DNA from: Tubulanus polymorphus
Taxonomy: Eukaryota > Animalia > Nemertea
Assembly: GCF_964204645.1 (NCBI RefSeq)
Contig: NC_134025.1
Location: 15,624,001 to 15,688,000, forward strand
Length of the DNA: 64,000 nt
Reading direction: 5' to 3'
Position numbers and translations under genes: made by a program. Below the pieces are notes generated by a model that was not told where the DNA came from, searched no databases, and was given only the letters and a program-made list of their open reading frames with translations. Below are positions 22,146 through 58,052 of this stretch, one piece after another. The first letter of the stretch is position 1. Each line of letters begins with the position of its first letter.

Positions 22146-25100
22146 ATGGGAGAGAGTGAGTACCAGACAGAAAACAATAATGTTAATAAAAATCAATATT
22201 ATTGTCCATATTGTAAAAAATACATCGATAAATCTAATAAATCTAAACATGAAAAATCTTCAAATCATATAAAAAATGTAATAGATTTTGAAACTCCAGA
22301 AAATTCCAATGAAAGAAAAGAACGATTAGAAAATATGAATGTGGATGAAATAAAATGTGAAGTTTGTAATGAATTTATAGTAAAAAGGAATTATAATAGA
22401 CATCTCGAATCACAAAAACACCATCAAAATTTGAGTAATAATGTTTTAGGAAAAGATTATTTTGATGATAAACCTCAAAAAGTAAAAAAACCAACTTCAA
22501 AAACTAAATCCATTTCAAATAAACCTTACGTGGAAAATGTTAGAAATTATATTGATTCACTAGAAATAAAAGATACAATTGAAATATTAGAAACATTACA
22601 TAGTAAAATTGGTCCTGCAGCTATTATATTTAGATTCTTTAAAGGAACAACAATAGAAGATTATAGTAAATTTAATGAAATAATAGAAAAAATACTAGAT
22701 TTGATAACAGATGTTGAATATCCAAAAATTAGAATCTCTGGGAAAGTAAGTTTTATAAAGTCAGAAGAAAAAATGAATTATAATATTCAAACACACTCTG
22801 AAGAAATAATTTCAAAAACACAAATATTAGAGAAGTTAGAAAAAATATTTAATAAATTTAAACGTCATATTGAAGAAAGATATTTTGAGGGTTCTGGCTT
22901 AACATTGAACGAAATTATATATTTAGATTTAAATGTTTATAATACAAAAAGGAATAAAACATCAAAAACTAATAAAATGTTTAAAAATGATTCAAACTTT
23001 ACAACAGAAAAGGATATTAAAGCATCATCTTATATTAAATTACTATTTACAACAAAAGCAGTAATAAATGTTCAAAATGAAGATAATAAATGTTTTCTAT
23101 GGTCAATTATTAGTTGCTTACATCCAACACAGGAAAATGTTTGTAGAATAACAGATTATCGGAAATATGAAACATTATATAAAATTGATCAATATCCAGT
23201 AACTATAAAAATGATACCCAAAATAGAAAAAATTAATAATTTAAAAATAAATGTATTCGAATTAATGCAATTACCAAAGACAAAAGGTGAAAATATTAAA
23301 GATTATACATTGGAAGCTTTATATTTAACAGAATATTATGATGATGAAAATGCTATAGATTTGTTATATTATAAAAAAGATGAAAATGAACATTATATGT
23401 GGTTAAAACAAATTGATTTATTCTTTAGAACAGAAAGTGATCATCATCGTAAAATTTATCTATGTAGAAAATGTTTATCTAAATTTATGACTGAGAATAC
23501 ATTATTAAAACATAAAGAATTATGTGATAATAAAGATTTTTGTAAATTAATAATGCCAACAGAAAAAGATTATAAATTGAAATTTACTAATCATAAATTT
23601 AAGAATATTGATCCATTTGTAATTTATGGGGATTTTGAATCGTTGAATAAAGAATTAACTGATCAAGATAGGAAAGAAATATATAACAAAAAGCAATTAT
23701 TAAAATCAATGGATAAAGGAAATGAATTAAATGAAGACACAATACAAGACCCACCAATTATAAATACAATTAAAAAAGTTCATCAAAGAGCTGCTGCTTA
23801 TGGAATTTATATAAAATCAAATTATCCCGAATTATATGAAAGTCAATATATTTCTTTTAGAGGTGAAGATGTAGATGATTTTTGTGACAAAATGATTGAA
23901 TTAGAAAGTGATTTTGCAAAATTATTAAACAAAAATAAAAGAATAGTCATGACAAAAGAAGATGAAATCGATTTTAATTATGCAACTCATTGTTGTTATT
24001 GTGAAAAACGTTTTTATTCATTTGATAAAAAAGTTAGAGATCATAATCATTTAAATTCTAAATATCGTGGAGCTGCTCATGAAGATTGCAATTTACAAGC
24101 TAAGAAAGTTAATTTCGTACCAATATTATTTCATAATTTATCAGGCTATGATACCCATCTATTTATAAAACAATTATCGGGAAAATTGGGCGCAATTAAT
24201 CAAGAAATAGAAGAATATAATGCTATGAATGGTGTAAATGTAAGAAAATATGATTTTAAACTATTAGCTAAAACATCTGAAAATTATATTTCATTTCAAT
24301 TTGGTTGCATTAGATTTTTAGATTCTTATAGATTTCTAGCAAGTTCATTAGATAATCTATCAAAAAGTTTAGTTGATAATGATTTTGTTATAACTCGATA
24401 TTATTATCCAAATGAACAAGATTTTAAATTATTGAGATATAAAGGCGCAATTCCTTATTCATTTTATAAAACGCACAATGATTTTAATGTAACAGAATTA
24501 TTAAAAGATCAATTTTATGATCAATTAAAAGAGGAGTATGTGAAAGACGAAGTGTTTAATAGAACATTAAATATTTGGAACCATTTTAAGATGAAAAATC
24601 ATGGCGAATTAGTTGATTTGTATTTAAAATCAGATGTTATGATATTGGCTGACATATTTGAAAAATTTAGAGAAGTTAATTTGAATCATTTTAATGTTGA
24701 TCCTTGTTATTGCTACTCTAGTCCTGGTTTAACCTGGCAATGTGGTTTAAAATATACAAATGTAGAATTAGATTTATTAAAAGAACCAGATATGGTTTTA
24801 TTATTTGAAAAATCAATTAGAGGTGGAATTAGTGGTGTTATGGGAGATAGATATTTTAAAGCAAATGATGAATGTAAATTATTATATATTGACGCCAATA
24901 ATTTATATGGTTGGGCAATGATGCAACCTCAACCATATAAAAATTTTATATTAACAGAAGTTGAAAATGATGATAAAACTAATTGGGAAAGCGCAATTAT
25001 GAGTTTAGAAGATGAAGCACCAATTGGTTATTTCTTTGTAGTTGATTTAGAATATCCTGAAAATATAAAGTTTAAAACAAGAAACTTACCTTATTGCCCA

Positions 25101-27217
25101 GAACATTTAACTGTAGATGATAGTTATTTAAGTGAATACCAGAAGAAAATAAAACCGAAAGATCATGTTTTTACAGAAAAATTAATACCTAATCAAAATA
25201 ATAAATACAATTATATTGTTCATTATAGAATGTTAACATTTTATCTAAAACAAGGAATGAAATTAAAGAAAGTACATAGATATATTGAATTTAATCAATC
25301 GAAGTGGTTAGAAAAATATATAGATTTCAATACTCAGCAGAGAACCATATCAAAAACAGATTTTGAAAAAGATTTCTTCAAATTAATGAATAATAGTTTT
25401 TATGGTAAAACATGTGAAAATATTAGAAATAGAAATGATATTGAATTAGTAAATAATTCTGAAAGATTAAGACATTTACAATCAAGTCCTAGATATTTAG
25501 GAAATAAAAGATTTGAAGATTATTTAACAGCAGTTTAATTAAAAAGAACGTCAATGAAATTTAATAAACCTATATTCATTGGTTCAACTGTTTTAGAAGT
25601 ATCAAAATTATTAATGTATGATTTTTATTATAATGTTTTACAACCACTTTTTGGGGAAAAGCATATTGAAATATTATATTTTGATTCTGTAACAGCTGAC
25701 ACCCCAATATTATTAAAATGTAATGATAAAATATTGATAAGAAGAATTTCAGAAATAATTCCAAAACAAAATGAATGTTATATTTCATATGGAGAAAAAG
25801 AATTAATACAAATAAATGGTTTAATGGACAAGAAATGGATGGAAAAAATTAAAGAATATTATTAGGCATAAAACAAATAAGAAAATCTATAGAGTTAGAA
25901 CTAAATTAGGATTTGTAGATGTTACAGAAGATCATAGTTTAATTAAACGAAATGGTGATGAAATAAAACCAACTGATATAAAAATTGGAGATGAATTATT
26001 ACATAAAAGATTTTTCCAAAGAATGAATCATATGTCATTTGATGAAATAATTGATAATATTTATAATATAGAACCCGAAACATTAGAAGAAAAAGAATAT
26101 TTTATCAAAGGATTTTTCATGGGTGATGGTTCAGCAGGTGTGTATAATTATGTTTGGGGTAATAAATATTGTTGGTATTATTGAATAAAGTTGGTTGTTT
26201 ATGCAATCAAGACTTGAAATTATTAGAAAGAATTAAGAAATTCTGTGAAGAAGTTTATTCACATAAAACATTCAAAATCATAGATGTTATGAAATCATCG
26301 CAATGTTATAGAATGCATGTGAATAATCCTAAAGATTTTGCTATAAAATATAATGACAAATTCTATATTCATGCAATAGTGTAAGTAATACTTCAACTAA
26401 AGAAAAGATAGTTCCAGATTATGTATTAAAAGCAAAAAATAATTTAAGAAAATGGTTCTTCATTGGATTCTACGCAGCCGATGGTACTAAAAGTTTCAAA
26501 AACCGCAAAACAATATCTTTAGCTCAAAAAGGAAAAGTTGCTATATCAGGATTAAATATATTATGCAATTCATTAGGCTTTAATATGAATATTGGATTGA
26601 TTAAATCTAAACCAAATTGCTTTAATTTAAGCCATGTAGAAAATGAGTTAACTGAAGAAGTTAAAGATTTATTTGAAATATATAACCCAACAGATTATGT
26701 TTATGATTTATCAACTGAAGATGGTACATTTAACTGTGGATTTCCATTAATAGCAGTCAATACTGACGCCTACATACTAAAAATCAAGACAAATGACATA
26801 ACAAAAGACTTAAAAACATTAAAACATCATTTTGATTTTAGCAATTATCCCAAAGATCATGAACTATTTAGCAATGATAATAAAAAGATTCCTGGTAAGT
26901 TTAAAGATGAATTAGGGGGTGATGAAATGATTGAATTTGTTGGGATAAGAAGTAAAATGTATAGTTACAGAACAAAAGATCATGAAGCTAAAAAGTTAAA
27001 AGGAATAACAAAACATGTGGTTGATAAACATATAGAATTTCAAGATTATATAAAGTGTTTATATAAATCAATTGTAATGAAACACAAAATGAATTGTTTA
27101 AGATCAGAAGATCATGAGATGTACATTAATGAAGTTGAAAAAACTAGTTTAAATCCATTTGATGATAAAAGGCATATTTTAGATGATGGTATAAAAACAT
27201 TACCTTATGGTCATTAA
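22146..27217 (+). pseudogene. polB: Protein-primed family B DNA polymerase (ZnF, putative TP, vOTU-like, exonuclease with EndoVII-like insert, polymerase) interrupted by an intein
   Basis: DNKCFLWSI/HYMW (OTU-like), [48 protein letters not shown]-[intein]-TD, PGKFKDE; nonsense codon at 25536. Confidence 0.92.
25686..26761 (+). mobile_element. Intein with a LAGLIDADG homing endonuclease (PolB motif-C site), frameshifted
   Basis: Block A SVTADTP; block B VDVTEDHSL (~25915-25941); blocks C/E FIKGFFMGDGS (26101) and FFIGFYAADGT (~26456); block F YVYDLSTEDGTF; C-terminal IAVN with +1 Thr; absent from the homologous site at 46498/46499. Confidence 0.93.
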
Positions 27218-27272: not shown

Positions 27273-28060
27273 TTAATTGTTCAGGTTCTTCTTCCATTCC
27301 ATTTTCTCATTTAAATAAAGTTCTATCTTGTTCCACATTTCATCTCGCTCTCTTTGTTTCTTTTTGTTTGTTAATTCATCAAATGGAATTATAATATCTA
27401 TGTTTAAATAATTTACAATCTTATTTAAAAAGAATTCATAATTAATTGAATCTGTTATTCTATTTTCCAAATGATACATTAATATTTGTGTAAATATTTT
27501 TTTTATATTTTCCATATCTTCTTCTGTTAATTTAGGTTTTTCATGATAATCGTTAAATAATAAATATAAATACCTTTTCTTTTGTTTTGTGTTAAATTTT
27601 GACGGAATAATTGTTTTTATAATATCTTTTTTAGTTATTTCACCATTTTTATTTTCTATTATTTTCATTTTTTCAAGCCATTGCTTATATTCTGGTGTAT
27701 GATCTTCTATAGAAAATATTTTAAAAATTTCATCAAGATAATTTAATTTTGGTTCTATGAGAAAATCTCTAGTTTTTTCTTCACCCAATACATTCTTTTG
27801 CCATCCACATTCATTACAAAATAACACAGTACCTTCTTGTCTAAAAGGTCGCATAACTAAATTGTGGACATTTTCGTTTATAATTTATTGGTAATAGATC
27901 TTCATTTAGCTCCTGGTATTTTCTTACGTTTTCTTTATGTTTTATTGTTCTATTATGTAGATTTGAATTACATGTTGTAATAATCAATTTACAATATTTA
28001 CAATAATATGTTTTTCTTGTTAATTCGTTATATTGTTTTTCTAACTTTTCAACTGTTTCA
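27273..28060 (-). pseudogene. Poxvirus/NCLDV late transcription factor VLTF3 (A2)-like protein with N-terminal zinc finger and zinc ribbon
   Basis: CPQ(F)...CNECG zinc ribbon across a frameshift at ~27850; C-terminal PKLTEEDMENIKKIFTQI...INYEFFLNKI...KKKQRERDEMWNKI resembles the VLTF3 pattern. Confidence 0.6.
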
Positions 28061-42369: not shown

Positions 42370-42778
42370 AGTAATAGGGGTAATGGGCTTTCAAATCAAA
42401 GGTCGAACGGTCGAGCTTATTAAAAACAAAACATTAAAAGTAATTTAAAACTATAATATATTTTCATAACCGTGTGCATTTTATATTATAACTAAATATT
42501 TATTCTAAGATATTAATAATTCAAATTTTAAAAGCATATTGTATTAAATCAATTGGTCGCTCCGCTTCGCTACCGCTCCACTCCGCGACCGATTGATTTA
42601 TTTACAATACACAAATTCATATAATCAAATATATTTTAATAATAATAATTATTCTATTATTCAACTGAAATGCACACGGTTTTGAAAATATATTATAGTT
42701 TTAAATTACTTTTAATATTTGTTTTTAATGAACTCGACCATTCAACCTTTAACCTGAAAGCCCATTACCCCTATTACT
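42370..42778. repeat. Left terminal imperfect palindrome (409-nt hairpin)
   Basis: AGTAATAGGGGTAATGGGCTTTCA...TGAAAGCCCATTACCCCTATTACT; apex AATTGGTCGC-loop-GCGACCGATT at ~42551-42594. Confidence 0.92.
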
Positions 42779-43010
42779 CTTAAAATAATCATATACATGA
42801 ATAACATTTAAATTGACAGATTATTCAATATAAAAGTGTAAGCTCTTATAGAATAGATATATAGATATATTTACAACATTATTTCAATATTCATATTTGT
42901 ATGAGTTAGATTTTTAAACATTAAAAGTGTCAGTAAAGTGTGATTGAAATAATTCATATATAAATCATTGAACTTCTAAAATCAATTAAAAAAAAAAAAT
43001 TAGTATTAAA
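42779..43010. repeat. Left subterminal inverted repeat (pairs with 60275-60495)
   Basis: For example, TAAATCATTGAACTTCTAAAATCAATT and its reverse complement at ~60299-60325; the repeat runs almost to the ATG of both terminal genes. Confidence 0.88.
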
Positions 43011-46000
43011 ATGGAAGCAAATAAGTACTACTGTCCAACATGTAATATCAATATACATAAATCCCAAAAATCAAGACACAATAAAACTAAAATACATTTA
43101 GAGAATAAATTGAAATTAGAATATAAGGATGATATATTAGAAACTAAATTAGAAGAATTAAAGAATGAAAAAGAAACATATAAATGTGATACATGTAATC
43201 AATCATTCAGTGATAAAAGATATTATAAAGAACATTTAAAATCTAAAAGTCATATTGGAAATATGAACAATGATATTTTAGGTGAGGATTATTTTGATAA
43301 AGATAATGATAAGAAACAGAAGACAATTAAAAGCATAAAAAATAAATTAAACAATAGAAGACCATACATGGAAGATGTAAGAAAATATATTAATTTATTG
43401 GATAATAAAAAAGATATAGAGACAACCGAAGCATTTAAAAGTGATATTGGTCCAGCAGCTATTGAGTTTAAATTTCATAAAGGAAAAACATTAGAAGAAA
43501 ATAAAAAACATTTAGAAAATATGAAAGAAATAATAAAAATAATAACTGATGTTGAATATCCTAAAATAAGTATTTCATCAAAAGTTAAATTCATAAAATC
43601 TGAAGATAAACCAATATATAATATAAATTCTCATTCACAACATATTATTTCAAAACAATATATAGATGATAACTTAGATAAATGTTATAATGAAGTAAAA
43701 ACTAAAATAGAAGAGAAATATTTTGATGGATCTGGTTTAATATTTGATGAAATAATATTTATGACTTTACATGTTTATAACACAAAATATAATAAGTTAA
43801 CTAAATCAAAACCAATTGATGAAAATAATGTATCATATTATAAAGAACCAGATATTGAAGCATCAAGTAATATTAAACTACCATTTAAAACTAATGCTGT
43901 AATAAATGGTCAAAATTTTGATGATAAATGTTTTCTATGGGCTATAATAAGTTGTTTACATCCTGCAATTTATAATATTTGTAGATTAACTCATTATAAA
44001 CCATTTGAAAATAATTATAAGATAGATAAGTATCCTGTTAGAATTAAAAACGTCCCAAAGATAGAAAGAGATAATAATTTAAGAATAAATGATTGATTTA
44101 ATCAAATTACCAAATACAAAAGGTAACAACATAAAACATTATACATTAGAACCTTTATACCTATCAAAAGATTATGATTCAAATGATGTTATAGATATAC
44201 TATATTATGCGAATCATTATATGTGGATTAAACAAATCGATTTATTTTTTAAATCAGAAAATGATCACCATAAAATATATCTTTGTAGAAAATGTTTACA
44301 TAGATTCAGTAATGAAAGTACATTATTAAATCATAAACAATTATGTGAAAATCATGATTATTGTAAATTAGTTTTACCAAATGAAAAGGATAAAATATTA
44401 GAATTCAAAAAATATGATTACAAAAATAAAGTACCATTTGTAATATATGGAGATTTTGAATCATTAAATAAAGAATTAACTGATCAAGATAGAAAAGAAA
44501 TATATTATAAAAGAAAAAAATTAAATTCTAATGAAAATGATTTTTCAGATGAACCACCAATAACAAATACAATTAAAAAGATCAGCTGCTGCTTTCGGGT
44601 TATATATTAAATCTGATTATCCAGAACTAATTGAAAGTGAATATTATAATTACAGAAATGAAAATGTTATCAATCATTTTTGTGACTTATTAATTGAATA
44701 TGAAATAGGATTTAGTAAATTATTGAATACAAATATAGAAATTATAATGACAGAAGAAGATAAAGAAGAATTTGCGTTTGCAGATAAATGTTATTATTGT
44801 GAAAAGATATTTAATTATAAAGATAAAAAAGTAAGAGACCATGATCATTTGAATGGAAAGTTTAGAGGCGCTGCACATGAGAATTGTAACTTACAAGCTA
44901 AGAAAATCAATTTTGTACCAGTTATATTTCATAATCTATCAGGATATGATGCACATTTATTTATCAAACAGTTATGTCATAAAATAGAAGAAATTAATAA
45001 TGAAATAGAAAGATTAAATTCAAATAGATCAAAAGATAAAATACCAACTCATAAATTTAGACTGTTAGCTAAAACATCTGAGAATTATATATCATTCCAA
45101 TTTGAGTGTTTAAGATTTATAGATTCATATAGATTTTTAAATAGTTCATTAGATAACTTATCAAAATCATTAGTTGATGATGAATTAAAAATATTAAAAC
45201 AACACTACCCAAATAATGATGATTTTCAATTAATGAGATATAAAGGAGCAATTCCATATTCTTTCTATAAAAATCATAATGATTTTAACATAACTGAATT
45301 ATTGAAAGAACAATTCTATGATGAATTAAAAAATGAATATGTTAAAGATGAAGTATATAATAGAACATTGAATATTTGGAATCATTTCAAAATAGAAAAT
45401 CATGGGCAATTAGTAGATTTATATTTAAAATCAGATGTATTATTATTAACCGATATATTCGAAAGGTTTAGAGATGTAAACCTAAAATATTTCAATATTG
45501 ATCCTTGTCATTGTTATTCTAGCCCAGGTTTAACATGGGATTGTGGATTAAAATTAACAGATATAAAAATGGATTTGTTAACAAATATAGATCAATTATT
45601 ATTATTTGAAAAATCTATAAGAGGAGGAGTTTCAGGTGTATTAGGTGATAGATATTTCAATGTAAATGATAACCCTGGATATAAGTTATTATATATAGAT
45701 GCAAATAATTTGTATGGTTGGGCAATGATGGAACCACAACCTTATGGAGTATTTGAATTAACTGAAGTTTTACAGAATGAAAATAATGATACATTTGATT
45801 GGAAGAAAAGAATCCTAGATATTGCAGATGATTCAGATACTGGTTACTTCTTTCTTGTAGATTTAGAATATCCTGAACATATTAAATTTAAATCTAGAAA
45901 TCTAGCATACTGTCCAGAACATAAAACTGTTACTCATGAAGAATTATCAAATTATCAAAAAAGAATTAAACCCGAAAATCTTATTCATACAGAAAAGTTA

Positions 46001-47104
46001 ATGGTAACTCAAGAAGATAAATATACTTATGTAGTACATTATAGAATGTTAAAGTTTTATCTAAAACAAGGAATGGTTCTAAAAAAAGTACATAGATATA
46101 TTTCATTTAGTCAATCTAAGTGGTTAGAAAAATATATAGATTTTAACACCAAACAGAGAACTGAAGCTAAAACTGATTTCGAGAAAGATTTCTTCAAGTT
46201 AATGAATAATGCATTCTATGGTAAGACTTGTGAAAATATTAGTTATAATGATATTGAGTTAGTTAGTAATGGTAAAAGAATTAGACATTTACAAGTATAT
46301 CCTAAGTTCATTGGTAACAGAATATTTGATGAAAATTTAGCCGCAGTTAAAATGAGAAGAACATCCATGAAATTTAATAAACCAATCTATGTTGGCGCTT
46401 CAGTTTTAGAATTATCAAAATTACTAATGTATGAATTCTATTATAATGTATTACAACCACTTTTTGGAGAAATACATATAGAAATATTATATTTTGATAC
46501 AGATGCTTACATATTAAAGATAAAAACTAATAACATAACTGATGATTTAAAAACATTAAAACATCATTTTGATTTCAGTAACTATCCTAGAAATCATGAA
46601 TTGTTTAGCAATGATAATAAAAAAGTTCCCGGTAAATTCAAAGATGAATTAGGTGGTGAAGAAATGATTGAATTCATCGGTATTAGATCTAAAATGTATT
46701 CATATAAAACTTAAGAACATGAAGCTAAAAAGTTAAAAGGAATAACCAAAAGTGTAGTAGAAAAGAATATTAATTTCAAAGATTACATCAATTGTATATT
46801 CAATGAAGAAGTTAGAAAACATAAGATGAAATGTTTAAGATCTGAAGATCATGAAATGTTTATTGAAGAAATTGAAAAGATAAGTCTAAACCCATTTGAT
46901 GGTAAAAGATATATTTTAGATGATGGAATTCATACAGTTGCTTATGGTTGCAATTTAGATGAATACTTAAAATTTAAAAGAGAAGAAACAAAAGAGAACG
47001 AGATAATGAAAAGAATTCTAACGTGTTCATCAAATTTTAATAAAAATATGTATTATAAATGGAGAGTAAACAAACACACAGTGAGAACAATAAATCATTT
47101 CTAG
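43011..47104 (+). pseudogene. polB: Protein-primed family B DNA polymerase, intein-free allele (frameshifts at ~44090 and ~44580, stop at 46712)
   Basis: ZnF; DDKCFLWAI; IYGDFES; [19 protein letters not shown]; YIDANNLYG; [10 protein letters not shown]; uninterrupted YFDTD. Confidence 0.93.
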
Positions 47105-47412
47105 ATAGAATAAAAGATACTTCAAATGTCAAATCAGTAGATTATAAATTTAAGAAGTTAAAAGAATTAATAATCCATAAGAAATATCTAATTACAAATA
47201 TTGATACAGTAACTAACAAATATGGAGATAAATTAGTTATACACGTAGAATATGAAGGATTAAAAGGAAATACATATAAATTCAGAACATATTTACCGGA
47301 TAGATTTCATAGATTATCAAGTGAAGACTTAGAAGAATTATGTTCTGGTTGTTTCTATTTCGTATACAAAGGTAAGAATGAAAAAGGGCACCATGAAATA
47401 GATTTCGAATAA
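47059..47412 (+). CDS. Small Polinton protein, possible OB-fold ssDNA-binding protein
   Basis: FKKLKEL...Y.I...VTNKYG...TYLPDRF pattern directly downstream of polB. Confidence 0.5.
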   Translation: MESKQTHSENNKSFLDRIKDTSNVKSVDYKFKKLKELIIHKKYLITNIDTVTNKYGDKLVIHVEYEGLKGNTYKFRTYLPDRFHRLSSEDLEELCSGCFYFVYKGKNEKGHHEIDFE

Positions 47413-47429
47413 GAAAATATGTAAAATAA

Positions 47430-48188
47430 ATGGTAGAATTAAAAGAATACAGAATATTTGTAGATTCTAGAAAACTTACAAATTATAAATCTCATAATTT
47501 ACTAGTTCAATTAGATAGAGAATTCAAGAATTGTGTAGATTTAAAATTAGTTAATATAAGTTTATGTAATTCTTTTTACAATGTATTGGATAAAACTGTT
47601 GAACATAGAGTCTTTTTAATTCATGATAGAAATAAAAGTAAATGGTTTCATCTTTATCTTAAACCAGGATTATATAATTTAGATACATTAGCGCAGGAAA
47701 TTAATAGAAGAGCTCGGTTGAAAATGGGTGCATCTGCTGGATTTGGATTAAGACTGATTAAAAGTGATAGCTCCGATAAAATAAGAATGAAATTAGGTAA
47801 TGAAGATCAACATCAATTTCTAGTTAGAAAACCTTTAGCTAAAATTTTAGGAATAACCCCAGATGTAAGGATACGCAATGCTGATGCTCCACCAAATATA
47901 ATGCCTTTTACACACTTTTATATTTATTGCAAATTAATCGATCCTACAAAAACATTCGAAGCAACTAAAGATATAACTTGTAATTCTGGTTTAATTAACA
48001 TTTTACCATTGAAGAATGTTAAAGAATTTGGAACGCAAATAAATTATAATTTAACAGAATGTGATTTCAAACCATGCATTCCTCGTTTTAATAATTTTAA
48101 ATTAGAAATTAGAAATCACAATGGATACTTAATTGATTTAAATAATTTCCCTGTAATTTATGAATTAGTTATAAGATGTAGAGAGTAA
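47430..48188 (+). CDS. Minor capsid protein (penton, single jelly-roll)
   Basis: IFVDSR...VQLDRE...LVNISLCNSFYNV, LKPGLY, FYIYCKLI, LEIRNHNGYLIDLN...YELVI. Confidence 0.75.
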   Translation: MVELKEYRIFVDSRKLTNYKSHNLLVQLDREFKNCVDLKLVNISLCNSFYNVLDKTVEHRVFLIHDRNKSKWFHLYLKPGLYNLDTLAQEINRRARLKMGASAGFGLRLIKSDSSDKIRMKLGNEDQHQFLVRKPLAKILGITPDVRIRNADAPPNIMPFTHFYIYCKLIDPTKTFEATKDITCNSGLINILPLKNVKEFGTQINYNLTECDFKPCIPRFNNFKLEIRNHNGYLIDLNNFPVIYELVIRCRE

Positions 48189-48205
48189 TTTTTTTCACTA
48201 TATAA

Positions 48206-48550
48206 ATGAATATAACTGTTGGACCGAGTATATGTTTTGGTTTTGATTTTAAACATGGCAAAGAAATGAGAATTAAACTAAATGATGTAATTACTGATAT
48301 AAAAAGTAAATCATTTAACAATTCATCAATGATTAATAAAGAAAATTATAATAAAGAAAAAGTAATTGATTTAATTAAATCACCTTTAGAATATTATGAT
48401 TTAAATGAAGATGGAATTATCGATGATATTAAAAACATATTATCCAAAATATATGATAATCATAAAAGTAGTAATGAAATAAATGTTGAATTAATCATCA
48501 CTAAGATAACTAAATATTTTGATGATAGTAATTTTTTGATAAATAAATGA
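48206..48550 (+). CDS. Hypothetical Polinton protein
   Basis: Intact ORF preceded by the T-run/TAAATG motif. Confidence 0.6.
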   Translation: MNITVGPSICFGFDFKHGKEMRIKLNDVITDIKSKSFNNSSMINKENYNKEKVIDLIKSPLEYYDLNEDGIIDDIKNILSKIYDNHKSSNEINVELIITKITKYFDDSNFLINK

Positions 48551-48768
48551 GTGATAATAAGTGGATAATAACTGGATTATATAATGGCGCATTACTATCA
48601 GTTGGAACTGTTGGTTATTCAATGGTTTTAAAAAAAGTATTCAAAATGGGAAGTGTTAATGTTGATAGATTTGATATAAATGATATTTTAAAATCAACAT
48701 TAGCAGTTACTTTATCTAATTTAACTATTGATTATTTAGAAAAACAAAAATATATTCCTCCCATATAA
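48547..48768 (+). CDS. Small hydrophobic virion-type protein
   Basis: 73 aa, two hydrophobic helices, TAAATG start. Confidence 0.6.
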   Translation: MSDNKWIITGLYNGALLSVGTVGYSMVLKKVFKMGSVNVDRFDINDILKSTLAVTLSNLTIDYLEKQKYIPPI

Positions 48769-48792
48769 ATGTGTAATTTTTTTACTAAATAA

Positions 48793-49215
48793 ATGGCTTC
48801 TGCAATTATAACTATTATAGGATCGGCAATTGTTAACGCTTTAACATTTACTGGTGGCGGTTATTTATTTAAGCATATTGATAAAAATGGTTCATTAACA
48901 GAACAAAAAAGACATAACTTAGCATTAGAGAAATATAATAAAGCAGCAGAAGAATATAGAGGAAAGAGGCAAAACTATATGGATTACATTAATAAAGAAT
49001 TATATGATCTGAAGATTTCACATAGAGATTTTCAATCAGTTGATGATGCAATGAGTTTATATAACGCAGAAACAAATAAAGAAAAATTACATCTACATAA
49101 ACCTACAATATCAGATTATTATACCCCAAGTAATGAACAGAAGAAGTATGAAATAATTTGGATTTTAGGCGGAACTGTTATTGTTATATTTGTAGCGTAT
49201 AAGTTTACTAATTAG
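48793..49215 (+). CDS. Polinton membrane-associated protein
   Basis: MASAIITIIGSAIVNALTFTGGGYLF...EQKRHNLALE; C-terminal transmembrane segment. Confidence 0.65.
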   Translation: MASAIITIIGSAIVNALTFTGGGYLFKHIDKNGSLTEQKRHNLALEKYNKAAEEYRGKRQNYMDYINKELYDLKISHRDFQSVDDAMSLYNAETNKEKLHLHKPTISDYYTPSNEQKKYEIIWILGGTVIVIFVAYKFTN

Positions 49216-49236
49216 TAATTTTTTTTTGCTAAATAA

Positions 49237-49662
49237 ATGGATGATAATATTGATATTATTCCTCATGATATAAATAAAACTGAATTAAAAACATATTTAG
49301 AAAAACAAATATTAGAATTTGAAAGTGACTTAAAAGTTAAAAAGAAAAAATATTTAAAAAGTAAAATTATATATTATTTTATTATTCGTGATTCAGTTAC
49401 AATTAGTTCTGTAATAACATTTCTAGCAATATTCAGTCCAATAACACCATTAGCTATATCAATTGGTGTATTAGGATTAAGTTCAAGTGTTTTAACCGGT
49501 ATAAGTTCAAAATTAAATATAAAAAGTAATAAAGAAAAAATTAAAACTAATATAAAAGAAATTAATAAATTAAAGAATACACTAGATTATATAATAAGTT
49601 TAAATGGTCATATAACAGTTGAAGAACAAGATATATTATTAAAAGAATTAGTTAATTATTAA
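49237..49662 (+). CDS. Two-TM coiled-coil protein
   Basis: Central hydrophobic hairpin flanked by Lys-rich coils. Confidence 0.6.
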   Translation: MDDNIDIIPHDINKTELKTYLEKQILEFESDLKVKKKKYLKSKIIYYFIIRDSVTISSVITFLAIFSPITPLAISIGVLGLSSSVLTGISSKLNIKSNKEKIKTNIKEINKLKNTLDYIISLNGHITVEEQDILLKELVNY

Positions 49663-49678
49663 TTTTTTAATTATATAA

Positions 49679-50960
49679 ATGGGGTTTCCAAAAGCTTTCC
49701 AATATAATAAATCAATTAAATATAATATTCCTGCAATAGATTTTAAGAAAAATATTACATATAGAAATGAAGTTTTAAATTCATTAATTGATTTATATAT
49801 TTATGTTACTGAAAGTAATAATTTTCACGTAAAGATGGAAAATATATTTCATGTGTATACAATTTATTTCAAAAATTTAAAATCTAATATAAAGTATTGG
49901 CAGAACCAATTAAATTTTGCTGTTTATTGCGCAACAACAGGATGTGGAATAAGTTGGAATGATCATTTAAACAAACCAAGTTTACCATTGATGGTATTAC
50001 TTTTTAGATTTCATATATATTTTCAAATAAAATTAATATTAGATGAATTAGAATGTCCTTTACCAAGTTCAAAATATTTTAAAGAATTGAATAATAATAT
50101 TAATTTTCCTAAGTTTTATAAAATATGTAATGAATTTAATATTAATTCAAATAAAGATTTTAGAGCAAAAATTGGAACAATGGGTGGATTAGGAATATTA
50201 TATACTAAAGAATTTGGAAAAATAATGACAAATTCAGATATAAGAACACTAAACTGGAATGAATTACCAAAATATTATAATAATGTACAACAACAAAATA
50301 ATAATGGTTAGGTTAATTTCATTTTAGAAAATAGTGAAGGTGTTACTGTAGCTGGTATACAAAGAATAAATCAATCTATTAGAACTTATTTGATATGTAT
50401 TTTAGGTGCGCAAGTTGAAACAAGATCCCCAATAATTGGAAATGATAACACTTCATTCGATGCGCAGAAACAATTCAAAGTATTATTTGAAGATTCAATT
50501 CATAATGATAAAAATAGATCTATTCCAGAAAACATTGTAAGATATCAAAATTATTTAGATAAATCACATATTAGATTAAATTATTGTATAGGCCCTAATC
50601 TATTAATTATTTCTAATGTATTAAAGATGGGAAATATAATTGGTTACAATAATCTAATTAAAACTGCAACAATAAATAATTCATTTGGATTAAATGATAT
50701 AAATAAAAAGATTATTACTGCTCCAAAATTAATTGAAGGTGAAAAAAATTAAAAACATATTCAATCAACAGAAACTAAAACTAATAATATTAAATTGAAT
50801 AATGATTCTAAAATAAAAGATTACAATACATCAGAAAATATTAGAACTGATAATATTCAACATGATATAATTAAACTAAATGATGATAATAAATCCCATG
50901 AAAATGCTAAATTAGCTTTAACTTGTATAGGAATTGTAATCGGAGGAATATTATATTTTA
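49679..50960 (+). pseudogene. Conserved Polinton protein (WQNQLNFAVYCATTGCG motif) interrupted by stops
   Basis: ORFs 49679-50311 and 50390-50752 are in the same frame, separated by a TAG; C-terminal transmembrane segment near 50910-50960. Confidence 0.65.
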
Positions 50961-50984
50961 AATTTTAATTTTTTTATTATTTTA

Positions 50985-52437
50985 ATGGCAGAAGGTGGAG
51001 GAGATTATGAAATGGAAAACAGGGGAAATAATGATGATGCCAATACTAACAATGATGATTATATGACTGCTGATACTAATATTGATAATGATAATGATAC
51101 AACATATAATTCTAATTTAGCAGAGAGTGGTTCTAAAGCCCCATCAACAGATGAACATGATAGAAGAACTAGATCGAGAATACCTATTGAAAATTTAGAC
51201 CAAGGTTTAGAAAGAGAAAATATAGAAAATTATGAATTTATGTATGATTTTCAACGTGTATTTAAAGATTCTGGATATAATATAAATGATAGAGGCGCCA
51301 GACGTTTAGTAAAAGAATTAAAGTTTTTAGATGGTGAATATTATTATAAATTGAAAGATGATTATTATATTAACATCTCTTAAAATTCAAGACAAAATAT
51401 TAGCAAAATCAACTTTGCTTAGGTTAGACCTATCTAAAATTAAAAGAATAAGAAATAGTAATGAACCAGAAGATGTAACACAAGAATTAATTGATAAAAA
51501 TGAAAATGTATTTAAACAAAGAATTAAAAAATTATTTGAAACAATCAAAGATAATCCAGAAGCAGAAACAACTTCCGAACAGAATAAAATTTTCAAAACT
51601 AGTAAACTTAAATCAAACACTGAAGTTCAAACTGAAAAACTTTTACCGAAGGGATTACTTGATTCAACAGATCAAGAAATAGAAGCTTTAAGTATGTTTT
51701 CTAAAAAAAACAATTAGAGAAATAATAAGTATACGAGATGAAGCTGATAAAATTGCACGCGAAGAACATATTAGATATAATAAAATTAAACCTTTAGAAA
51801 ATAAATTATTTGACACCAGAAAAGAATTAGAACAATTAAAATTAGATAGAGAATTTAAAGTTATTGAAGAAATTGAATTTAAAAAAAGAAATGCATATTT
51901 AGAAAAAGAAATTGATGATTTAGAATATAACATAGAATTTCAGAAAGAAAAAATGAAATTATTATTAAATCATATGATTATTGTATTAATAGATTAAAAG
52001 TTGTTGTTAAAGAGTTAATACTGAAACCAAATTCTGAAATATCACTAAAAGATAGAATAAAATTATTATTTAAGTTTGAAGGAATCACAATTCTTTCAAT
52101 TCTAACAGCTGTAACTATGTTATTTACAACAATTGGTTTAGCAATATCAAATTCTTTGAAATCTACTCCTACTCCCAATAAACCAGATAAACCTCCAAGC
52201 AATAATTCTATACAAGATAAAGTTAAGGATGGTTTAAAGAAATTAGCAAAATATTTATGGGAACTATCAAAGAAATCTGCTGCAGCATTACCAGGAGTTA
52301 TTGCATCAATTGTTGGTTTTATATTGAAATCTGCAGGAAACATTATTAACTTTGCTGCTGAACATATTATTTTATTTTTAATTACAGTTGTAAGTGCTAT
52401 TATTTTTGGATTAGTAAACATGATAAAAAATAAATGA
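50985..52437 (+). pseudogene. Coiled-coil protein with C-terminal amphipathic/TM helices (putative membrane-active virion protein), frameshifted
   Basis: Fragments 50985-51383, 51358-51717, ...DRIKLLFKFEGITILSILTA...LAKYLWELSKKSAAALPGVIASIVGFI. Confidence 0.6.
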
Positions 52438-52457
52438 TTAATTTTTTTGTTAAATAA

Positions 52458-53705
52458 AAGAGTGGGAGTTATATCAATCCTTCTAAGAATCATAGAATAT
52501 CTAATGCTATTAAAGCAGAAAGATCACATCATATAATTACACATAATCCTTCTAATATTAATCCTGATGAAACTTTATATGTTAGAATTCCTCGATTAAC
52601 ACAAAATACTTTTTATGTTCCAAATAGTAATTATTTATCAGCCGATATAAAAGTAATCGGTAATAATAATAATTATGTTGTTGATAATGTTGGAAGGTAT
52701 TTGATTAAAAAGTTAACAATAAAGATTGGTCCAGAAACCGTTTTCTCATTAGATGATTATAATTTATTTATGCATTATAAAGATTTATGGTTAACTAAAG
52801 AAAATAGAAATAATATGATATTTCAAGGCATCCAATCAGAAAACCAAAATAAATTAAGATCAGGAGCTAATGACGCAATAGCAACTCGCACCGCAGATAA
52901 TTTCATAAAAAAGATTTATGGAAGCAAATATAAAATTCCATTAGACTTTGAATTGATAAATAACAATGCACCTTTATATAAATATGCAATTCAAGAAGAT
53001 GTTATATTCGAAATAACATTTGTTCCTGTAAATGGAATTGTATTATCTAGCGTTGTTAAAGATATGGGTTATAAATTATCGAATATATGTTTAGAATATG
53101 ATACAGTAACTGATGAAAATATTTCAAGTATAATTCAAACTAAATACAATCAAGGATTTTCATTATTATATGATTATATTGATAAATTTAAAACTGTAAC
53201 TATTAATGCAAATGATGAAATTATTAATGAGAGTATTAACTTCCCAAGAAGATCTATTAAAGGTATATTAATATTTTTTACCATTGCAACATATACTAAT
53301 GGCGCAATAAATGTTGATAATTATTATAATCCTGAAATAACAAAAGTAGAAATAACTATCGAAGGAATAGCAAATAAAATATTTTGTCAAGGAATGAGAA
53401 TGATAGATCAGTGGCCAGAAATTAGAAAACATTTTATGAATGAAAAAGTAAAATCATCTGAAAATTGTAATATTAATCAAATTGATTATTATACCGGTAA
53501 TAAATATGCATTATGGTTAGATTTTAGAACAACAGAGGATAATTCATTACATGGTTCTGGAAAAAAATTACAAAATACAAAAGATGGAATACAATTATTC
53601 ATGACAAAGAATAAAGGAATCAAACATTTTAAAATGCATATTTATATTATATCTGACGCGCAATTAAATATTGTAAATTCTCAATTGAATAGTGTTATGT
53701 ATTAG
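52458..53705 (+). CDS. Major capsid protein (double jelly-roll); start codon apparently mutated ATG to AAG
   Basis: Open frame from 52458: SYINPSKNHR...THNPSNINPDETLYVRIPRL...VDNVGRYLIKK...YKIPLDF...YKLSNICLEYD...LWLDFRT...LHGSG. Confidence 0.8.
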   Translation, partial: KSGSYINPSKNHRISNAIKAERSHHIITHNPSNINPDETLYVRIPRLTQNTFYVPNSNYLSADIKVIGNNNNYVVDNVGRYLIKKLTIKIGPETVFSLDDYNLFMHYKDLWLTKENRNNMIFQGIQSENQNKLRSGANDAIATRTADNFIKKIYGSKYKIPLDFELINNNAPLYKYAIQEDVIFEITFVPVNGIVLSSVVKDMGYKLSNICLEYDTVTDENISSIIQTKYNQGFSLLYDYIDKFKTVTINANDEIINESINFPRRSIKGILIFFTIATYTNGAINVDNYYNPEITKVEITIEGIANKIFCQGMRMIDQWPEIRKHFMNEKVKSSENCNINQIDYYTGNKYALWLDFRTTEDNSLHGSGKKLQNTKDGIQLFMTKNKGIKHFKMHIYIISDAQLNIVNSQLNSVMY

Positions 53706-53737
53706 AATTTCAACTTTAATAAAAATTTATATAATAA

Positions 53738-54259
53738 ATGGAAGGAGGTAAAGTATATAAACATATTCCATACATCGATACACATGCAAATAATGATGGT
53801 TTATATTATGTGATACCTTGTAATATAGCTTTGATATTTGATCCTATTTTCAAAATTTATGAAACTAAACTAATAGAAATAGATAATAATAAAAGTGAAG
53901 TTGTTGATGATTTAAGTAATGTAATACCTTCTACATCTAATAATGTAATACCTACTACATCTAATAATGTAACACCTACTACATCTAATAATGTAATACC
54001 TTCTACATCTAATAATGTAATACCTTCTACATCTAATAATGAAATAATATTAAATTATGGTGAAAATAAAAATTATTGTGGATATTGTAATGGTGAATTT
54101 TCAAACGCTCCATCTAATTGGAATAAACATATGAATACAAAGGTACACATTACTAATGCGGTAGAAAGGATGAAAAAGTATAAAAATAAAACAACTATTG
54201 ACGATGATACGGTAGAGAATTTGAATAAATTGTTAGGGTCTGATAGTGAAAGTGATTAA
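53738..54259 (+). CDS. Zinc-finger protein with five 9-aa (SNNVIPSTS-type) repeats
   Basis: 27-bp tandem repeats at ~53913-54040; CGYC...HMNTKVH. Confidence 0.7.
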   Translation: MEGGKVYKHIPYIDTHANNDGLYYVIPCNIALIFDPIFKIYETKLIEIDNNKSEVVDDLSNVIPSTSNNVIPTTSNNVTPTTSNNVIPSTSNNVIPSTSNNEIILNYGENKNYCGYCNGEFSNAPSNWNKHMNTKVHITNAVERMKKYKNKTTIDDDTVENLNKLLGSDSESD

Positions 54260-54672
54260 AATATTAATTATATTTAACACAAATAATAATATTGGTGGAA
54301 AATTGTATAAAATAATAGTAAATAAAAAGGGGGTTTTAAGTATTTAAGGTATTTAAGGTATCTAATACATATCTAATACATATCTAATACAATCTAATAC
54401 ATAAAATATCTTATTTTATAAACTGATATTCATATGGAAATTGAAACCTCAGTAATAATAAATAACCTTTATTATTTTCAAACTTATTCATATATTAGTT
54501 GAAAAAATAAAAATAAATTGGTTGAAAATTGTATAAAAAATATTTATTTTAAAAAAGGGGGTTTTAAGTATTTAAGGTATCTAATAGGATATCAGGTATT
54601 AGGGTATCTAATAGGGTATCAGGTATTAGGGTATCATGTATTAGGGTATCTAATACATAGGTATATAACTAG

Positions 54673-55284
54673 TTATTTTATATATTTATATTCATATGGA
54701 AATTGTAGTCTCAGTAATAATTTTGAACCTTTATTATTCTTTAATTTATTCATATATTCATCATGTTATTCAGTAGGTATAATTTGATTTTCTTCCAATG
54801 ATTGTTGCATAGATTTTCTATCTTTGTTATAAAATAAAACTAGAAATCTAATGTTTTCTCTAAAGTCTTTAACAATTGAATTATATTTTTGATTTAAAAC
54901 CCATGTTGTAATCCCAAAATGTCTCCCAGAGAAAGCTAGATAACATAACTCACTTTCTCTAACTTTTGAATCATGTAAATTTGCGCAATCATCTATGATA
55001 AATAATGTAGTTGATCCTTTATAAGTATCAATTGCTATTTTTATACAATTATCTAAATTTTCTTTTACTGTTTTAGGATTTAATATAATAAACTTTTTTA
55101 TCTTAACTATATCTCTATTATATGTTTTATTCATTTCATAAGTAGGACAAAATAATATTATATTATTAAAATGATTCTTATAAATAGTTTCTAACAAGTC
55201 TAATATGAAATGTGTTTTACCACAATTGGTTACTCCAGTAACTTACATATTATGCGGTTCAAATATAAATAAATCTTTATTCAT
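54673..55284 (-). pseudogene. A32/FtsK-like DNA packaging ATPase
   Basis: Walker A GVTNCGKT, Walker B FIIDD, GRH, NQKY; in-frame stops just before Walker A and at 54766. Confidence 0.88.
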
Positions 55285-56376
55285 TTATTCTTTTAATTTT
55301 ACTAGATAAAATCCATTCATTAAATTTATCATCATATCCCTATATTTCACCAAAGAATACTTTTTTACTTTAAGAGTTTTTGTTTTCAATACTTTTTCTA
55401 TTTTGTATTCTATTTCATCTGGATTTGGTACAAGTGATAATTCTTGTTCATAGAAATATCCTAATATTTCTTCATCTTTTAGATCTTCTAGTTTATAAAC
55501 AAATGGTTTAGTTAATATTATCTTTTTAATCTTGAATATTTCTTCTGTAAAATTTGGGGTATAACCTTTATAAAATGTTTTTCTATATTTAGATATTCTA
55601 ACGTGTTGTCCAATTTTAAATTTAGGTTCTCCGAAATCATGTGTAACAAATGCTCCATATAAATTATTCCAAACTATTTCTGAATTATCTTCTTTTCTAG
55701 CTTGTATAGGTTTCATACCAATACTTGAATGTTTAGAATTATTATAACCTTTCACTAAATCATCTAACACATCGATATATTTATATGTTTCATTAGCAGT
55801 AAAATATTTCCACATTCTAGTTTTCAATGTTTTATTAAATCTTTCTATAATAGATGCTTTTTTATCTGAATGTGTTGAAAAATAATCTACATCGTTATCA
55901 GATAATAGTTTTTTAAAATGTTTGTTATAAAATTCCTTACCTTCATCAAATTGTATCTTATCTGGAATAGCTTCTTTAAATATATTCTTAAAAGCGTTTG
56001 TAACTTCTATTCCGGTTTTATTTTTGATTGGAATTGACCATGCGTATCGACTGAATATATCTATAACATTTAATATCCAGAAATATCCTTTGTTGTATTC
56101 CTCTAAGTTCTTCATGTCAATTAAATCTGCTTGCCATTGTTAATCGATATATGAAACCATAACTTTTCTTATTAAATAAGTTTTATCCATTTTCTTGTGG
56201 ATTTGATATGTTGGTTGATTTGGTAACCATGATTTCAACTCACTATATTTTATATTTTCATTATCAGATTTAATTTTACTCCATAATTCTGAAACGTTAG
56301 AATATGATACTTCACTTTCTGGGTTATAATATAACTCTCTTAAATATTGTTCTTTTTTCGTCTTATTTTAATCCAT
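55285..56376 (-). pseudogene. Retroviral-like (rve) integrase with C-terminal chromodomain
   Basis: YYNP..., WQADLIDM, IDIFSRYAW, QFDEGKEF, IERFNKTLK, HSSIGMKP, chromo YKIEKVL; two nonsense codons in the N-terminal part. Confidence 0.9.
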
Positions 56377-56735
56377 TAATAATAGTTTAGATTTAGTTTC
56401 AATGGCTTTATGATTTGACTTATTTTCTGGTATAATAGGTTTATTGTCATTGGAATCATATTTATCATCAGATTTGAATTTTGATTTATATATTACACCG
56501 GATAATATGATAATTGTTACTAATCCAATTGTAATATATAATTTATAATTACTTCCAGCATTAGAAGAATCAGATGGATTATTACTTGAATCAATATCAG
56601 CTAAAGTCTGTGATTCATTTATATCAGTTAATTTCTTTGTCTTAGCTTTTTTAATTCTGAAGATCTTTTACCTAATTCTCTTGCCCATTTAATTTGTTTC
56701 TCGGATCTAGCCTTTTTCTTAACTCCATCACTCAT
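56377..56735 (-). pseudogene. Small basic protein with a transmembrane segment, frameshifted
   Basis: MSDGVKKKARSEKQIKWARELGKRS... then YITIGLVTIIILSGVI. Confidence 0.5.
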
Positions 56736-57330
56736 TTATTTTAGTTAATTTTTGTTCTGATTCATTTTCTGTTTCACTGTTTGGTTGTAGTACATCTGTT
56801 TCGTTCTTACCTGATTTATATTCCATAGGCTTGATATTCGAAAATGTAATGACGCCAGTAGAAATTAATGTCATAACCGATCCTAATTGAAATGAAGCAT
56901 AACCAACCCATTTTTGTAATTCAGTCATAACTAAATAGTCATTTTTCAAATCACTATATAATTTATTTTCATCATTAATTGGTATTAACTGGTTACATAA
57001 CTTAGAATAACATTTGACAATACCATCTGAAATAGAATCATTTATTCTAGCTGATCTTGCTTCTTCATAAATCTTAAAATATTTTATTACTTTATCGGGT
57101 TTCATAGAGTCTAATTCTTGAAAAGTAATAATTCTATTTAAAAACTCTTTAGTTTTTCCACCGGCAATCAATAGTTCTAGATGATGCTTACAATATAAAT
57201 AGTATTCATAATCTATATTACAATTAACTTGAGCACAATTAGTTACAACTGTATCTTTATTATCACATATACCCAAATCATCTAATGTTTTTTCAATATC
57301 AATACTATTCTTATTAGTTTTCTTTGACAT
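56728..57330 (-). CDS. Conserved hypothetical Polinton protein
   Basis: Intact 200-aa ORF (LELLIAGGKTKEFL...DLKNDYLV) with the T-run/TAAATG motif. Confidence 0.65.
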   Translation of the reverse strand: MSKKTNKNSIDIEKTLDDLGICDNKDTVVTNCAQVNCNIDYEYYLYCKHHLELLIAGGKTKEFLNRIITFQELDSMKPDKVIKYFKIYEEARSARINDSISDGIVKCYSKLCNQLIPINDENKLYSDLKNDYLVMTELQKWVGYASFQLGSVMTLISTGVITFSNIKPMEYKSGKNETDVLQPNSETENESEQKLTKINE

Positions 57331-57847: not shown

Positions 57848-58052
57848 TTATAAATCAAATTTTTATTAAAATTGATTAACATTTTAGAATCCTCTTCCAT
57901 TTCTTCGACTAACGTCATCCTTTTTCATTCCTCGCTGCTTTTTATGTCATTTCGGATCCTCGATAATAAATCCTCAACTGAAAATCAATTCAACGAAACG
58001 ACTGGTGGAAATATTATTTCATAAACACATATATTTATTATGTAAATTTTAG

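What the first reader, a model, noticed from the sequence alone, without database searches (positions are those of the whole stretch)
25686..26761. Giant-virus-type homing intein inside the DNA polymerase of an endogenous animal Polinton
Seen: a 1076-bp insert splits catalytic motif C exactly as YFD|SVTADTP...IAVN|TDAY. It has Hint blocks A, B (VDVTEDHSL), F and G, terminal Asn, +1 Thr, and two LAGLIDADG motifs (GFFMGDGS, GFYAADGT), now broken by a few indels. Established: this is the PolB-c site used by archaeal and Mimivirus PolB inteins. As I recall it, the Mimivirus intein also starts SVTxDTP, shares the RHKTxKKIYRV...VTEDHSL stretch and lacks the penultimate His (Val here). Inteins are essentially unknown from animal nuclear DNA. 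Inference: the intein moved from an NCLDV PolB into the distantly related protein-primed PolB during co-infection and was then endogenized.
Basis: partly seen in the sequence, partly recalled or inferred. Interest (0 to 1): 0.92.

Follow-up and report, generated by a model that had tools for sequence, protein, structure and literature searches.

The report
Homing intein family in Polinton polymerases
A broken copy of a self-excising protein insert (an intein) with a DNA-cutting domain sits in the polymerase active-site motif of a virus-like transposon in what is likely an animal genome, and its intact relatives suggest that it likely spreads between such transposons by cut-and-copy homing, although inteins are said to be absent from animals.

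Summary
A 1076-bp Hint + LAGLIDADG intein splits motif C of a Polinton protein-primed PolB (YFD|S…N|T), and a second Polinton in the window has the empty site. This copy is dead: three frame breaks plus an upstream stop.

It belongs to a family. Six protein clusters hold complete inteins at the same site (41-62% identical to this copy), and with this copy they form one clade (100/99). Intein divergence tracks polymerase divergence (rho 0.91), so the family is old; one member sits in a distant polymerase type. In one 136-member cluster, carriers and empty alleles differ mainly around the site (11 of 15 positions), and empty alleles vary at motif C but not at A or B. That is what homing and escape would leave.

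The closest outside relatives are giant-virus PolB inteins (Mimivirus 37%), but the direction of transfer is unresolved (AU p 0.65), and an Asgard archaeal PolB carries the same type. An animal host is inferred from the repeat landscape only. Eight literature searches and seven look-ups of this scan's notes found no earlier report.

The parts
22146..25685 (+). N-extein of Polinton protein-primed PolB (element 1); premature stop at 25536-25538
   Evidence: PF03175 E 2e-17; ORFs; last 600 aa of extein 84% identical to intein-free P0420
25686..26761 (+). Decayed class-1-type intein with LAGLIDADG endonuclease; three frame breaks near 25.82, 26.18, 26.38 kb
   Evidence: 62% identical to intact P0002 intein
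25686..25712 (+). Block A, starting with Ser1 (SVTADTPIL)
25915..25941 (+). Block B with T-x-x-H (VDVTEDHSL)
   Evidence: invariant in alignment A1
26110..26133 (+). First LAGLIDADG motif (GFFMGDGS)
26465..26488 (+). Second LAGLIDADG motif (GFYAADGT)
   Evidence: PF14528 E 9e-4, below cut-off
26696..26761 (+). Blocks F and G (YVYDLST...FNCGFPLIAVN); short FNxGF-type ending, terminal Asn
26762..27217 (+). C-extein, starting with +1 Thr (TDAY)
27273..27884 (-). AT-rich ORF of unknown function at the right end of element 1
   Evidence: no family hit above cut-off
42370..60683 (.). Element 2: full-length 18.3-kb Polinton with AGT...ACT termini, terminal inverted repeats and 6-bp target-site duplication GGGGTG (42364-42369, 60684-60689)
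   Evidence: integrase PF00665 and A32 ATPase PF04665
42990..47104 (+). Intein-free pPolB of element 2, itself in four pieces; 73% identical to element 1 extein
46487..46510 (+). Empty intein site LYFD|TDAY (junction 46498|46499)

Best explanation
This is a dead genomic copy of an intein with a LAGLIDADG endonuclease in catalytic motif C of a Polinton polymerase, one member of an old Polinton intein clade that likely came from giant-virus PolB inteins and likely persists by homing between Polinton copies. Shown: anatomy, exact junctions, empty allele, intact relatives, one clade, broad co-divergence with the polymerase. Inferred from intein chemistry: in intact members Ser1, the block-B His, the block-F Asp, the terminal Asn and +1 Thr excise the intein and restore the YxDTD motif, so the polymerase would work only after splicing. 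Inferred from allele patterns: the endonuclease cuts the empty site in a related Polinton in the same nucleus, and repair from a carrier copies the intein plus a short flank (about -6 to +44 codons in one family). Empty alleles with altered motif C (DCDS, DTDA) may be escape variants. This copy could not splice or cut: a stop precedes the intein and the first break lies inside the Hint domain.
For: Six clusters hold complete inteins at the same site in pPolBs: P0002, P0018, P0022, P0024, P0025, P0139. The model of intact P0018 has pLDDT 90, and all ten top Foldseek rows are endonuclease-bearing inteins (best E 4e-18). Seven of seven Polinton inteins form one clade (100/99; 99; 0.999). In the extein tree carriers fall at nine separate places, seven beside empty alleles. 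Of the 120 best polymerase relatives, 4 carry the intein, 90 are empty and 26 could not be parsed. P0139 cluster: of 15 listed members 7 are carriers, 6 empty and 2 do not reach the site; 11 of 15 carrier/empty diagnostic residues lie in 61 of 1191 positions around the site. The 6 empties show three motif-C haplotypes, diversity 0.30 against 0 at motifs A and B. Cys at -4 occurs in 15 of 19 carriers and 1 of 77 empties. P0022 has an extein only 22-23% but an intein 46-47% identical to the window and P0002. The short 11-residue ending occurs in 7 of 7 Polinton inteins and 32 of 158 PolB inteins, against 12 residues in the other 126 and in all 14 topoisomerase inteins; 9 of the 10 IMG/VR loci with the FNxGF ending are GVMAG contigs.
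Against: The direction of origin is unresolved: Polinton-outside-all (p 0.65, likelihood 7.5 higher than the free tree) and sister-to-FNxGF (p 0.56) both stand, and the mixture tree supports the latter at only 80 in an unfinished search. An Asgard archaeal PolB carries the same type of intein (L178). Intein and extein trees are largely congruent (rho 0.91 over 105 non-independent pairs), which inheritance plus loss also gives. Forcing P0022 outside the other six is not rejected (p 0.43). The homing evidence is protein-level, from 15 of 136 members, with no DNA. With 8 instead of 6 empties another window is more variable than motif C (0.41 vs 0.31). Three empties of the P0139 cluster also have Cys at -4. 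Between the two window elements a protein hint of conversion (3 shared residues) is not borne out by synonymous sites (p 0.07-0.66). Splicing and cutting are untested, and the host taxon is not shown.
Confidence: 0.66

Rival explanations
1. Same homing intein, other origin: the Polinton clade is sister to, or the source of, the giant-virus motif-C inteins, or both drew it from an archaeal (Asgard-type) PolB.
For: The constrained tree with Polinton inteins beside the archaeal outgroup has a higher likelihood and is not rejected. The backbone is an open polytomy. Promethearchaeota L178 and archaeon L181 have inteins on the giant-virus side of the tree. Carrier exteins are as little as 39% identical, so the clade is old.
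Against: The derived-looking 11-residue FNxGF ending is shared with only a subset of giant-virus inteins. FastTree (0.984 for the enclosing 55-tip clade, 0.48 for the direct sister link) and the mixture tree (80) place the clade next to that subset. Giant-virus-type inteins are far more numerous and diverse in the hits (158 vs 7 after dereplication).
Confidence: 0.17
2. No homing among Polintons: one ancient gain, then vertical descent with repeated loss; carriers and empties are just subfamilies.
For: Intein and extein identities correlate at 0.91 and the trees are mostly congruent. No DNA-level conversion signal between the window elements.
Against: Differences concentrate at the site in otherwise ~98% identical polymerases. 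Both LAGLIDADG motifs with their Asp are kept in all 6 intact inteins. The intein also sits in the very distant P0022 polymerase. The Cys(-4) flank goes with the intein across extein lineages.
Confidence: 0.08
3. The window is not animal nuclear DNA (a protist or other eukaryote), or the stretch is a contaminant or chimeric join, so the 'intein in an animal' claim fails though the intein is real.
For: No host gene identified among 88 ORFs; no genome held; no reads examined. Inteins in endogenous giant-virus polymerases are known from algae and a labyrinthulid (PMC10710043). Element 1 is a 6-kb fragment, and none of the 25 longest inverted repeats lies at its ends.
Against: The flanks are gene-poor 36-45% GC DNA with an inverted pair of Penelope-like RTs, a LINE fragment, microsatellites and a Polinton integrated with a target-site duplication, a landscape I recall as typical of marine invertebrates. 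The junctions are codon-exact and independent records carry the intein at the same site, so the insert itself is no assembly artefact.
Confidence: 0.07
4. One reading: a recent, single transfer from a co-infecting giant virus into this Polinton, then endogenization.
For: 37% identity to the Mimivirus intein and about 40% to other giant-virus inteins.
Against: The six closest inteins are all Polinton ones (62-41%). GC is the same as the gene's. The clade co-diverged with the polymerase.
Confidence: 0.02

Closest known systems
Mimivirus PolB intein (R322, residues 1053-1403; PMC549080; P0218)
   Same: Same motif-C site (YxD|S...N|TD), Ser1/Asn/+1 Thr, block B, both LAGLIDADG motifs, about 350 aa; 37% identical to the window copy.
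   Different: The host is an RNA-primed, Pol-delta-like PolB of a giant virus; here it is a protein-primed PolB with no meaningful similarity to it in an integrated Polinton. The block-G ending differs (FHAGVG vs FNCGF).
FNxGF-ending PolB inteins of uncultured giant viruses (GVMAG loci such as L110; P0151, P0152, P0155)
   Same: About 40-44% identity and the same short ending; best candidate sister group.
   Different: RNA-primed PolB hosts; sisterhood weakly supported.
Archaeal PolB motif-C inteins (L190, L204, L208) and solved endonuclease-bearing inteins (TliVMA 7qsu, PI-PkoII 2cw7, PI-PfuI 1dq3)
   Same: Same insertion motif and same two-domain fold.
   Different: Longer (386-391 aa) and on a long separate branch; 12-19% identity in the structural alignments.
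Inteins in endogenous giant-virus polymerases of Klebsormidium, Tetrabaena and Hondaea, and Anaeramoeba inteins (PMC10710043)
   Same: Virus-borne inteins lying in eukaryotic nuclear DNA (passages).
   Different: Not Polintons and not animals; 'Polinton', 'Maverick', 'metazoa' and 'protein-primed' are absent from its two held supplements.
HNH and VSR nuclease insertions in Polinton pPolBs (PMC10748475; PMC11071308)
   Same: Nuclease domains inside pPolB; one passage speculates that they stem from intein invasions.
   Different: No Hint domain, splice junction or LAGLIDADG is described in the passages seen, and the word intein does not occur in the nematode study.

Membership tests
Class-1 intein | In-frame insert absent from an orthologous empty allele, with exact junctions | tested here: met
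   Empty allele in the window and in 90 of 120 relatives; in frame in 6 intact clusters. The window copy itself is out of frame.
Class-1 intein | Ser/Cys1, block-B TxxH, block-F Asp, terminal Asn, +1 Ser/Thr/Cys | tested here: met
   (block F pattern matched in 6 of 7; P0025 not matched by the pattern)
Class-1 intein | Penultimate His (common, not required) | tested here: not met
   Val in the window copy; His in 4 of 7 Polinton inteins; Lys is commonest in the PolB relatives
Class-1 intein | Hint domain by profile and fold | tested here: met
   TIGR01445 above cut-off for P0018 and P0139, just below for P0002 and P0022, none for P0024; PF14890 below cut-off in all; model of P0018 matches solved inteins
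Class-1 intein | Protein splicing activity | not testable with these tools
   The window copy is predicted dead; intact members are untested
LAGLIDADG homing endonuclease (intein-borne) | Two LAGLIDADG motifs with catalytic Asp and I-DmoI-like fold | tested here: met
   PF14528 above cut-off in P0002, P0018, P0022, P0024, P0025; I-DmoI match rmsd about 3 A
LAGLIDADG homing endonuclease (intein-borne) | Cuts the empty allele and drives conversion | tested here: inconclusive
   Conversion-like tract in the P0139 family; not significant between the window elements; no assay
PolB motif-C intein allele (the label 'PolB-c' is recalled, from no call) | Insertion between YxD and TD of the catalytic motif | tested here: met
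   Same junction in Mimivirus, three archaeal PolBs and the window
Giant-virus-derived intein | Nested inside Nucleocytoviricota PolB inteins with the root outside | tested here: inconclusive
Polinton/Maverick | Protein-primed PolB | tested here: met
   PF03175 for both elements
Polinton/Maverick | Integrase, packaging ATPase, TIRs, 6-bp TSD | tested here: inconclusive
   All present in element 2. Not found in the intein-bearing element 1, a fragment assigned by 73% polymerase identity.
Animal nuclear DNA | Linked metazoan genes or assembly origin | tested here: inconclusive
   No host gene in 88 ORFs; repeat landscape only

The most novel reading that the evidence does not exclude
Animal chromosomes carry intact, splicing-competent inteins inside Polinton polymerases. 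These act as a gene drive among the many Polinton copies of one genome, jump between distant Polinton polymerase types, and push the polymerase's own catalytic motif to diversify (DTDS to DCDS or DTDA) to escape cutting: the first protein splicing and intein homing in metazoan nuclear DNA.
Probability: 0.4. Interest if true: 0.92.

Novelty: new variant of a known kind. Interest (0 to 1): 0.78.

Why it matters
A review states flatly that inteins are absent from metazoan genomes (PMC8529194, passages), and surveys list eukaryotic-virus inteins from giant-virus families (PMC5784728). A Polinton intein clade adds a new host protein class (protein-primed PolB) and a route into eukaryotic, likely animal, chromosomes. 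It would record gene exchange between Polintons and giant viruses in a shared cell. Because carriers and empty alleles coexist in one multi-copy family, the homing cycle (invasion, co-conversion, resistance, decay) could be read copy by copy inside a genome. It also offers an explanation for unusual variation at a catalytic motif.

Tried and rejected
No whole genome is held, so other copies in this genome were not counted. No read or run data were examined, so junction support and expression stay open. The ESM Atlas gave no answer, so no taxa came from it. Annotated phages gave one 27% hit. The host-gene search gave nothing above cut-off. The fold of the partial P0001 was too poor to use (pLDDT 52). 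Conversion between the two window elements: protein hint, no DNA support. The clustering of all four lesions within 1226 of 5072 bp (p 0.003, window chosen after the fact) could mean a dead intein copied into a younger gene; but element 2's polymerase has three lesions in 4.1 kb, so chance is not excluded. Rejected: a Hedgehog-type Hint domain (it has an internal endonuclease and both junction residues); sequencing error as the cause of the breaks (not in homopolymers, though reads were not seen); the missing His as a Mimivirus link. The careful mixture tree did not finish; the quick tree is reported, with two long rows left out. The 47-row tree used 47 of 121 candidate rows, thinned from 181 dereplicated inteins.

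Full report
1. Observation. Window 25686-26761 is a 1076-bp insert between YFD and TDAY of a protein-primed PolB (PF03175, E 2e-17). It begins SVTADTP, ends FNCGFPLIAVN, and holds block B and two LAGLIDADG motifs. Four colinear pieces in changing frames match the intact intein of P0002 (E 9e-103), so there are three frame breaks, near 25.82, 26.18 and 26.38 kb. A premature stop lies 150 bp upstream. The Mimivirus intein scores 105 bits on the insert against at most 23.1 on 200 triplet shuffles. GC is 25.3% inside, 24.4% upstream and 25.9% downstream.

2. Surroundings. The gene lies in a 6-kb AT-rich fragment (element 1, about 22.1-28.2 kb) whose only match to the second element is the polymerase. 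Element 2 (42370-60683) is a full-length Polinton with AGT...ACT ends, inverted repeats, a 6-bp target duplication, integrase and A32 ATPase. Its polymerase is 73% identical and has the empty site YFD|TDAY. The rest of the window is gene-poor, with Penelope-like RTs, a LINE fragment and microsatellites. Of 125 flanking ORFs of at least 62 aa listed, 88 were scanned; none passed a Pfam cut-off. Eukaryotic nuclear DNA is well supported; 'animal' rests on my recall of such repeat landscapes.

3. A family. One piece of the insert found 145 proteins among 227 candidates; 24 of the first 25 have Polinton-type flanks or group with the Polinton inteins, and P0016 is a topoisomerase. The P0002 intein found 926 of 3112, mostly RNA-primed PolBs, including Mimivirus at 39%. 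Complete inteins at the same site occur in six pPolB clusters: P0002, P0018 (55 members; flanks only), P0022, P0024, P0025 and P0139 (136 members, contigs up to 1 Mb). They are 41-62% identical to the window copy; Mimivirus is 37%. All six keep Ser1, TxxH, both endonuclease Asp and the terminal Asn. The model of P0018 (pLDDT 90) matches endonuclease-bearing inteins best. The labels pPolB1 and pPolB2 in my scripts are my own and are not the published classes.

4. History. The seven Polinton inteins form one clade in all three trees. Among 15 carriers of the window's polymerase type, intein and extein identity correlate at 0.91 and the trees are mostly congruent; carrier exteins go down to 39% identity. 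The intein is therefore old in this lineage. It is also patchy: 4 carriers, 90 empties and 26 unparsed among the 120 closest polymerases, with carriers at nine places in a 93-row extein tree, seven next to empty alleles. P0022 is a different polymerase type (22-23% extein identity) with a 46-47% identical intein, which points to a jump between Polinton types, although its exact place inside the clade is not fixed (AU p 0.43).

5. Signs of homing. Fifteen of the 136 P0139-cluster members were listed: 7 carriers, 6 empties and 2 too short. Eleven of 15 residues that separate carriers from empties lie within -10 to +50 of the site, 61 of 1191 positions (binomial p 7e-12, treating linked sites as independent, which overstates it). 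The mean carrier/empty difference is 13.9 inside this tract and 18.1 over the other ~1130 residues. The six empties show three motif-C haplotypes (YTD-CDS, YFD-TDA, YGD-TDA), with diversity 0.30 against 0 at motifs A and B; adding two more empties makes another window the most variable. Among 90 empties the commonest form makes up 80 at motif A, 69 at motif B and only 36 at motif C. Cys at -4 occurs in 15 of 19 carriers (29 matched, 10 near-copies dropped) and 1 of 77 empties; these rows are related, and three P0139 empties outside the 77 also have it. This is the pattern expected from cut-and-copy homing with a short co-converted flank and from selection for uncuttable targets (established homing biology, recalled), but it is protein-level only. 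Between the window's two elements three shared residues near the site hint at conversion; synonymous sites do not confirm it.

6. Origin. Outside Polintons the best matches are PolB inteins at about 40-44%. Polinton inteins share a one-residue-shorter ending with 32 of 158 PolB inteins, 26 of them FNxGF. Nine of ten IMG/VR loci with that ending are GVMAG contigs, and L110 has a giant-virus-like neighbourhood. FastTree and the mixture model put the clade beside this group with weak support; the careful tree leaves the backbone open. AU tests reject neither a position outside all giant-virus-type inteins (p 0.65) nor sisterhood with the FNxGF group (p 0.56). An Asgard PolB has the same type of intein. 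A giant-virus donor is the best guess, not a result.

7. Mechanism. Shown: structure, junctions, alleles, clade. Inferred: intact members splice by the class-1 route and restore YxDTD, so the polymerase depends on splicing; the endonuclease cuts empty sites of related Polintons in the same nucleus, and repair copies the intein. Insertion in a catalytic motif hinders loss and keeps the target conserved. The window copy is a fossil.

8. Literature. Eight full-text searches found no description of a Hint/LAGLIDADG intein in a Polinton. In the listing the word intein has zero occurrences in PMC8502044, the preprint of PMC10748475, PMC8097293, PMC11131425 and PMC10120064 (the last three seen as listings only). 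Seven look-ups of this scan's notes found no intein-Polinton note; two unchecked notes describe group I introns in flatworm Polintons, a parallel case that I did not test.

9. Verdict. Real, and apparently unreported: a known kind of intein in a new class of host protein and mobile element, with population signs of homing. Open: host taxon, direction of transfer, activity. Interest 0.78.

Noticed in passing
L178:1715-5707 (also L181): A Promethearchaeota (Asgard) MAG PolB carries a 336-aa motif-C intein that groups with giant-virus-type inteins rather than with other archaeal ones. The polymerase looks archaeal, not misbinned viral.
   Followed up: partly
P0016 and 13 other topoisomerase II inteins: Giant-virus-like topoisomerase II proteins carry inteins of the same family at other sites (TEGD|S, TDQD|T), P0016 having three inteins: non-allelic spread of this lineage.
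   Followed up: partly
proteins: The commonest motif C among 90 intein-free relatives is YMDCDS (36), not YMDTDS (21); Cys at this place in the catalytic motif is unusual from recall.
   Followed up: partly
window 42370-60683: Full-length Polinton with TIRs and a 6-bp TSD; several genes are broken. It encodes an endonuclease VII/HNH-like protein at 59621-60274 (phrog_1035 E 2e-16) and a likely major capsid protein at 52458-53705 (recalled resemblance, no profile hit).
   Followed up: partly
window 14081-18805: Two near-identical Penelope-like reverse transcriptase ORFs in inverted, head-to-head orientation, followed by ~800-bp tandem units to about 21.2 kb (RVT_1).
   Followed up: no
window 4600-7522 (-): Decayed DNA transposase; the motif pattern recalls Sola2 (recalled; no profile hit).
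   Followed up: no
window 25536-26761: All four lesions of element 1's polymerase gene lie in the intein or within 150 bp upstream, while about 3.8 kb of extein is open; unexplained.
   Followed up: partly
P0428: A close intein-free Polinton polymerase is labelled Sulfurimonas sp. in UniRef, probably eukaryotic DNA in a bacterial record.
   Followed up: no
window 40573-41457 and 62137-62883: A family of ~200-bp inverted repeats flanks element 2 on both sides, probably MITE-like and unrelated to the Polinton ends.
   Followed up: no
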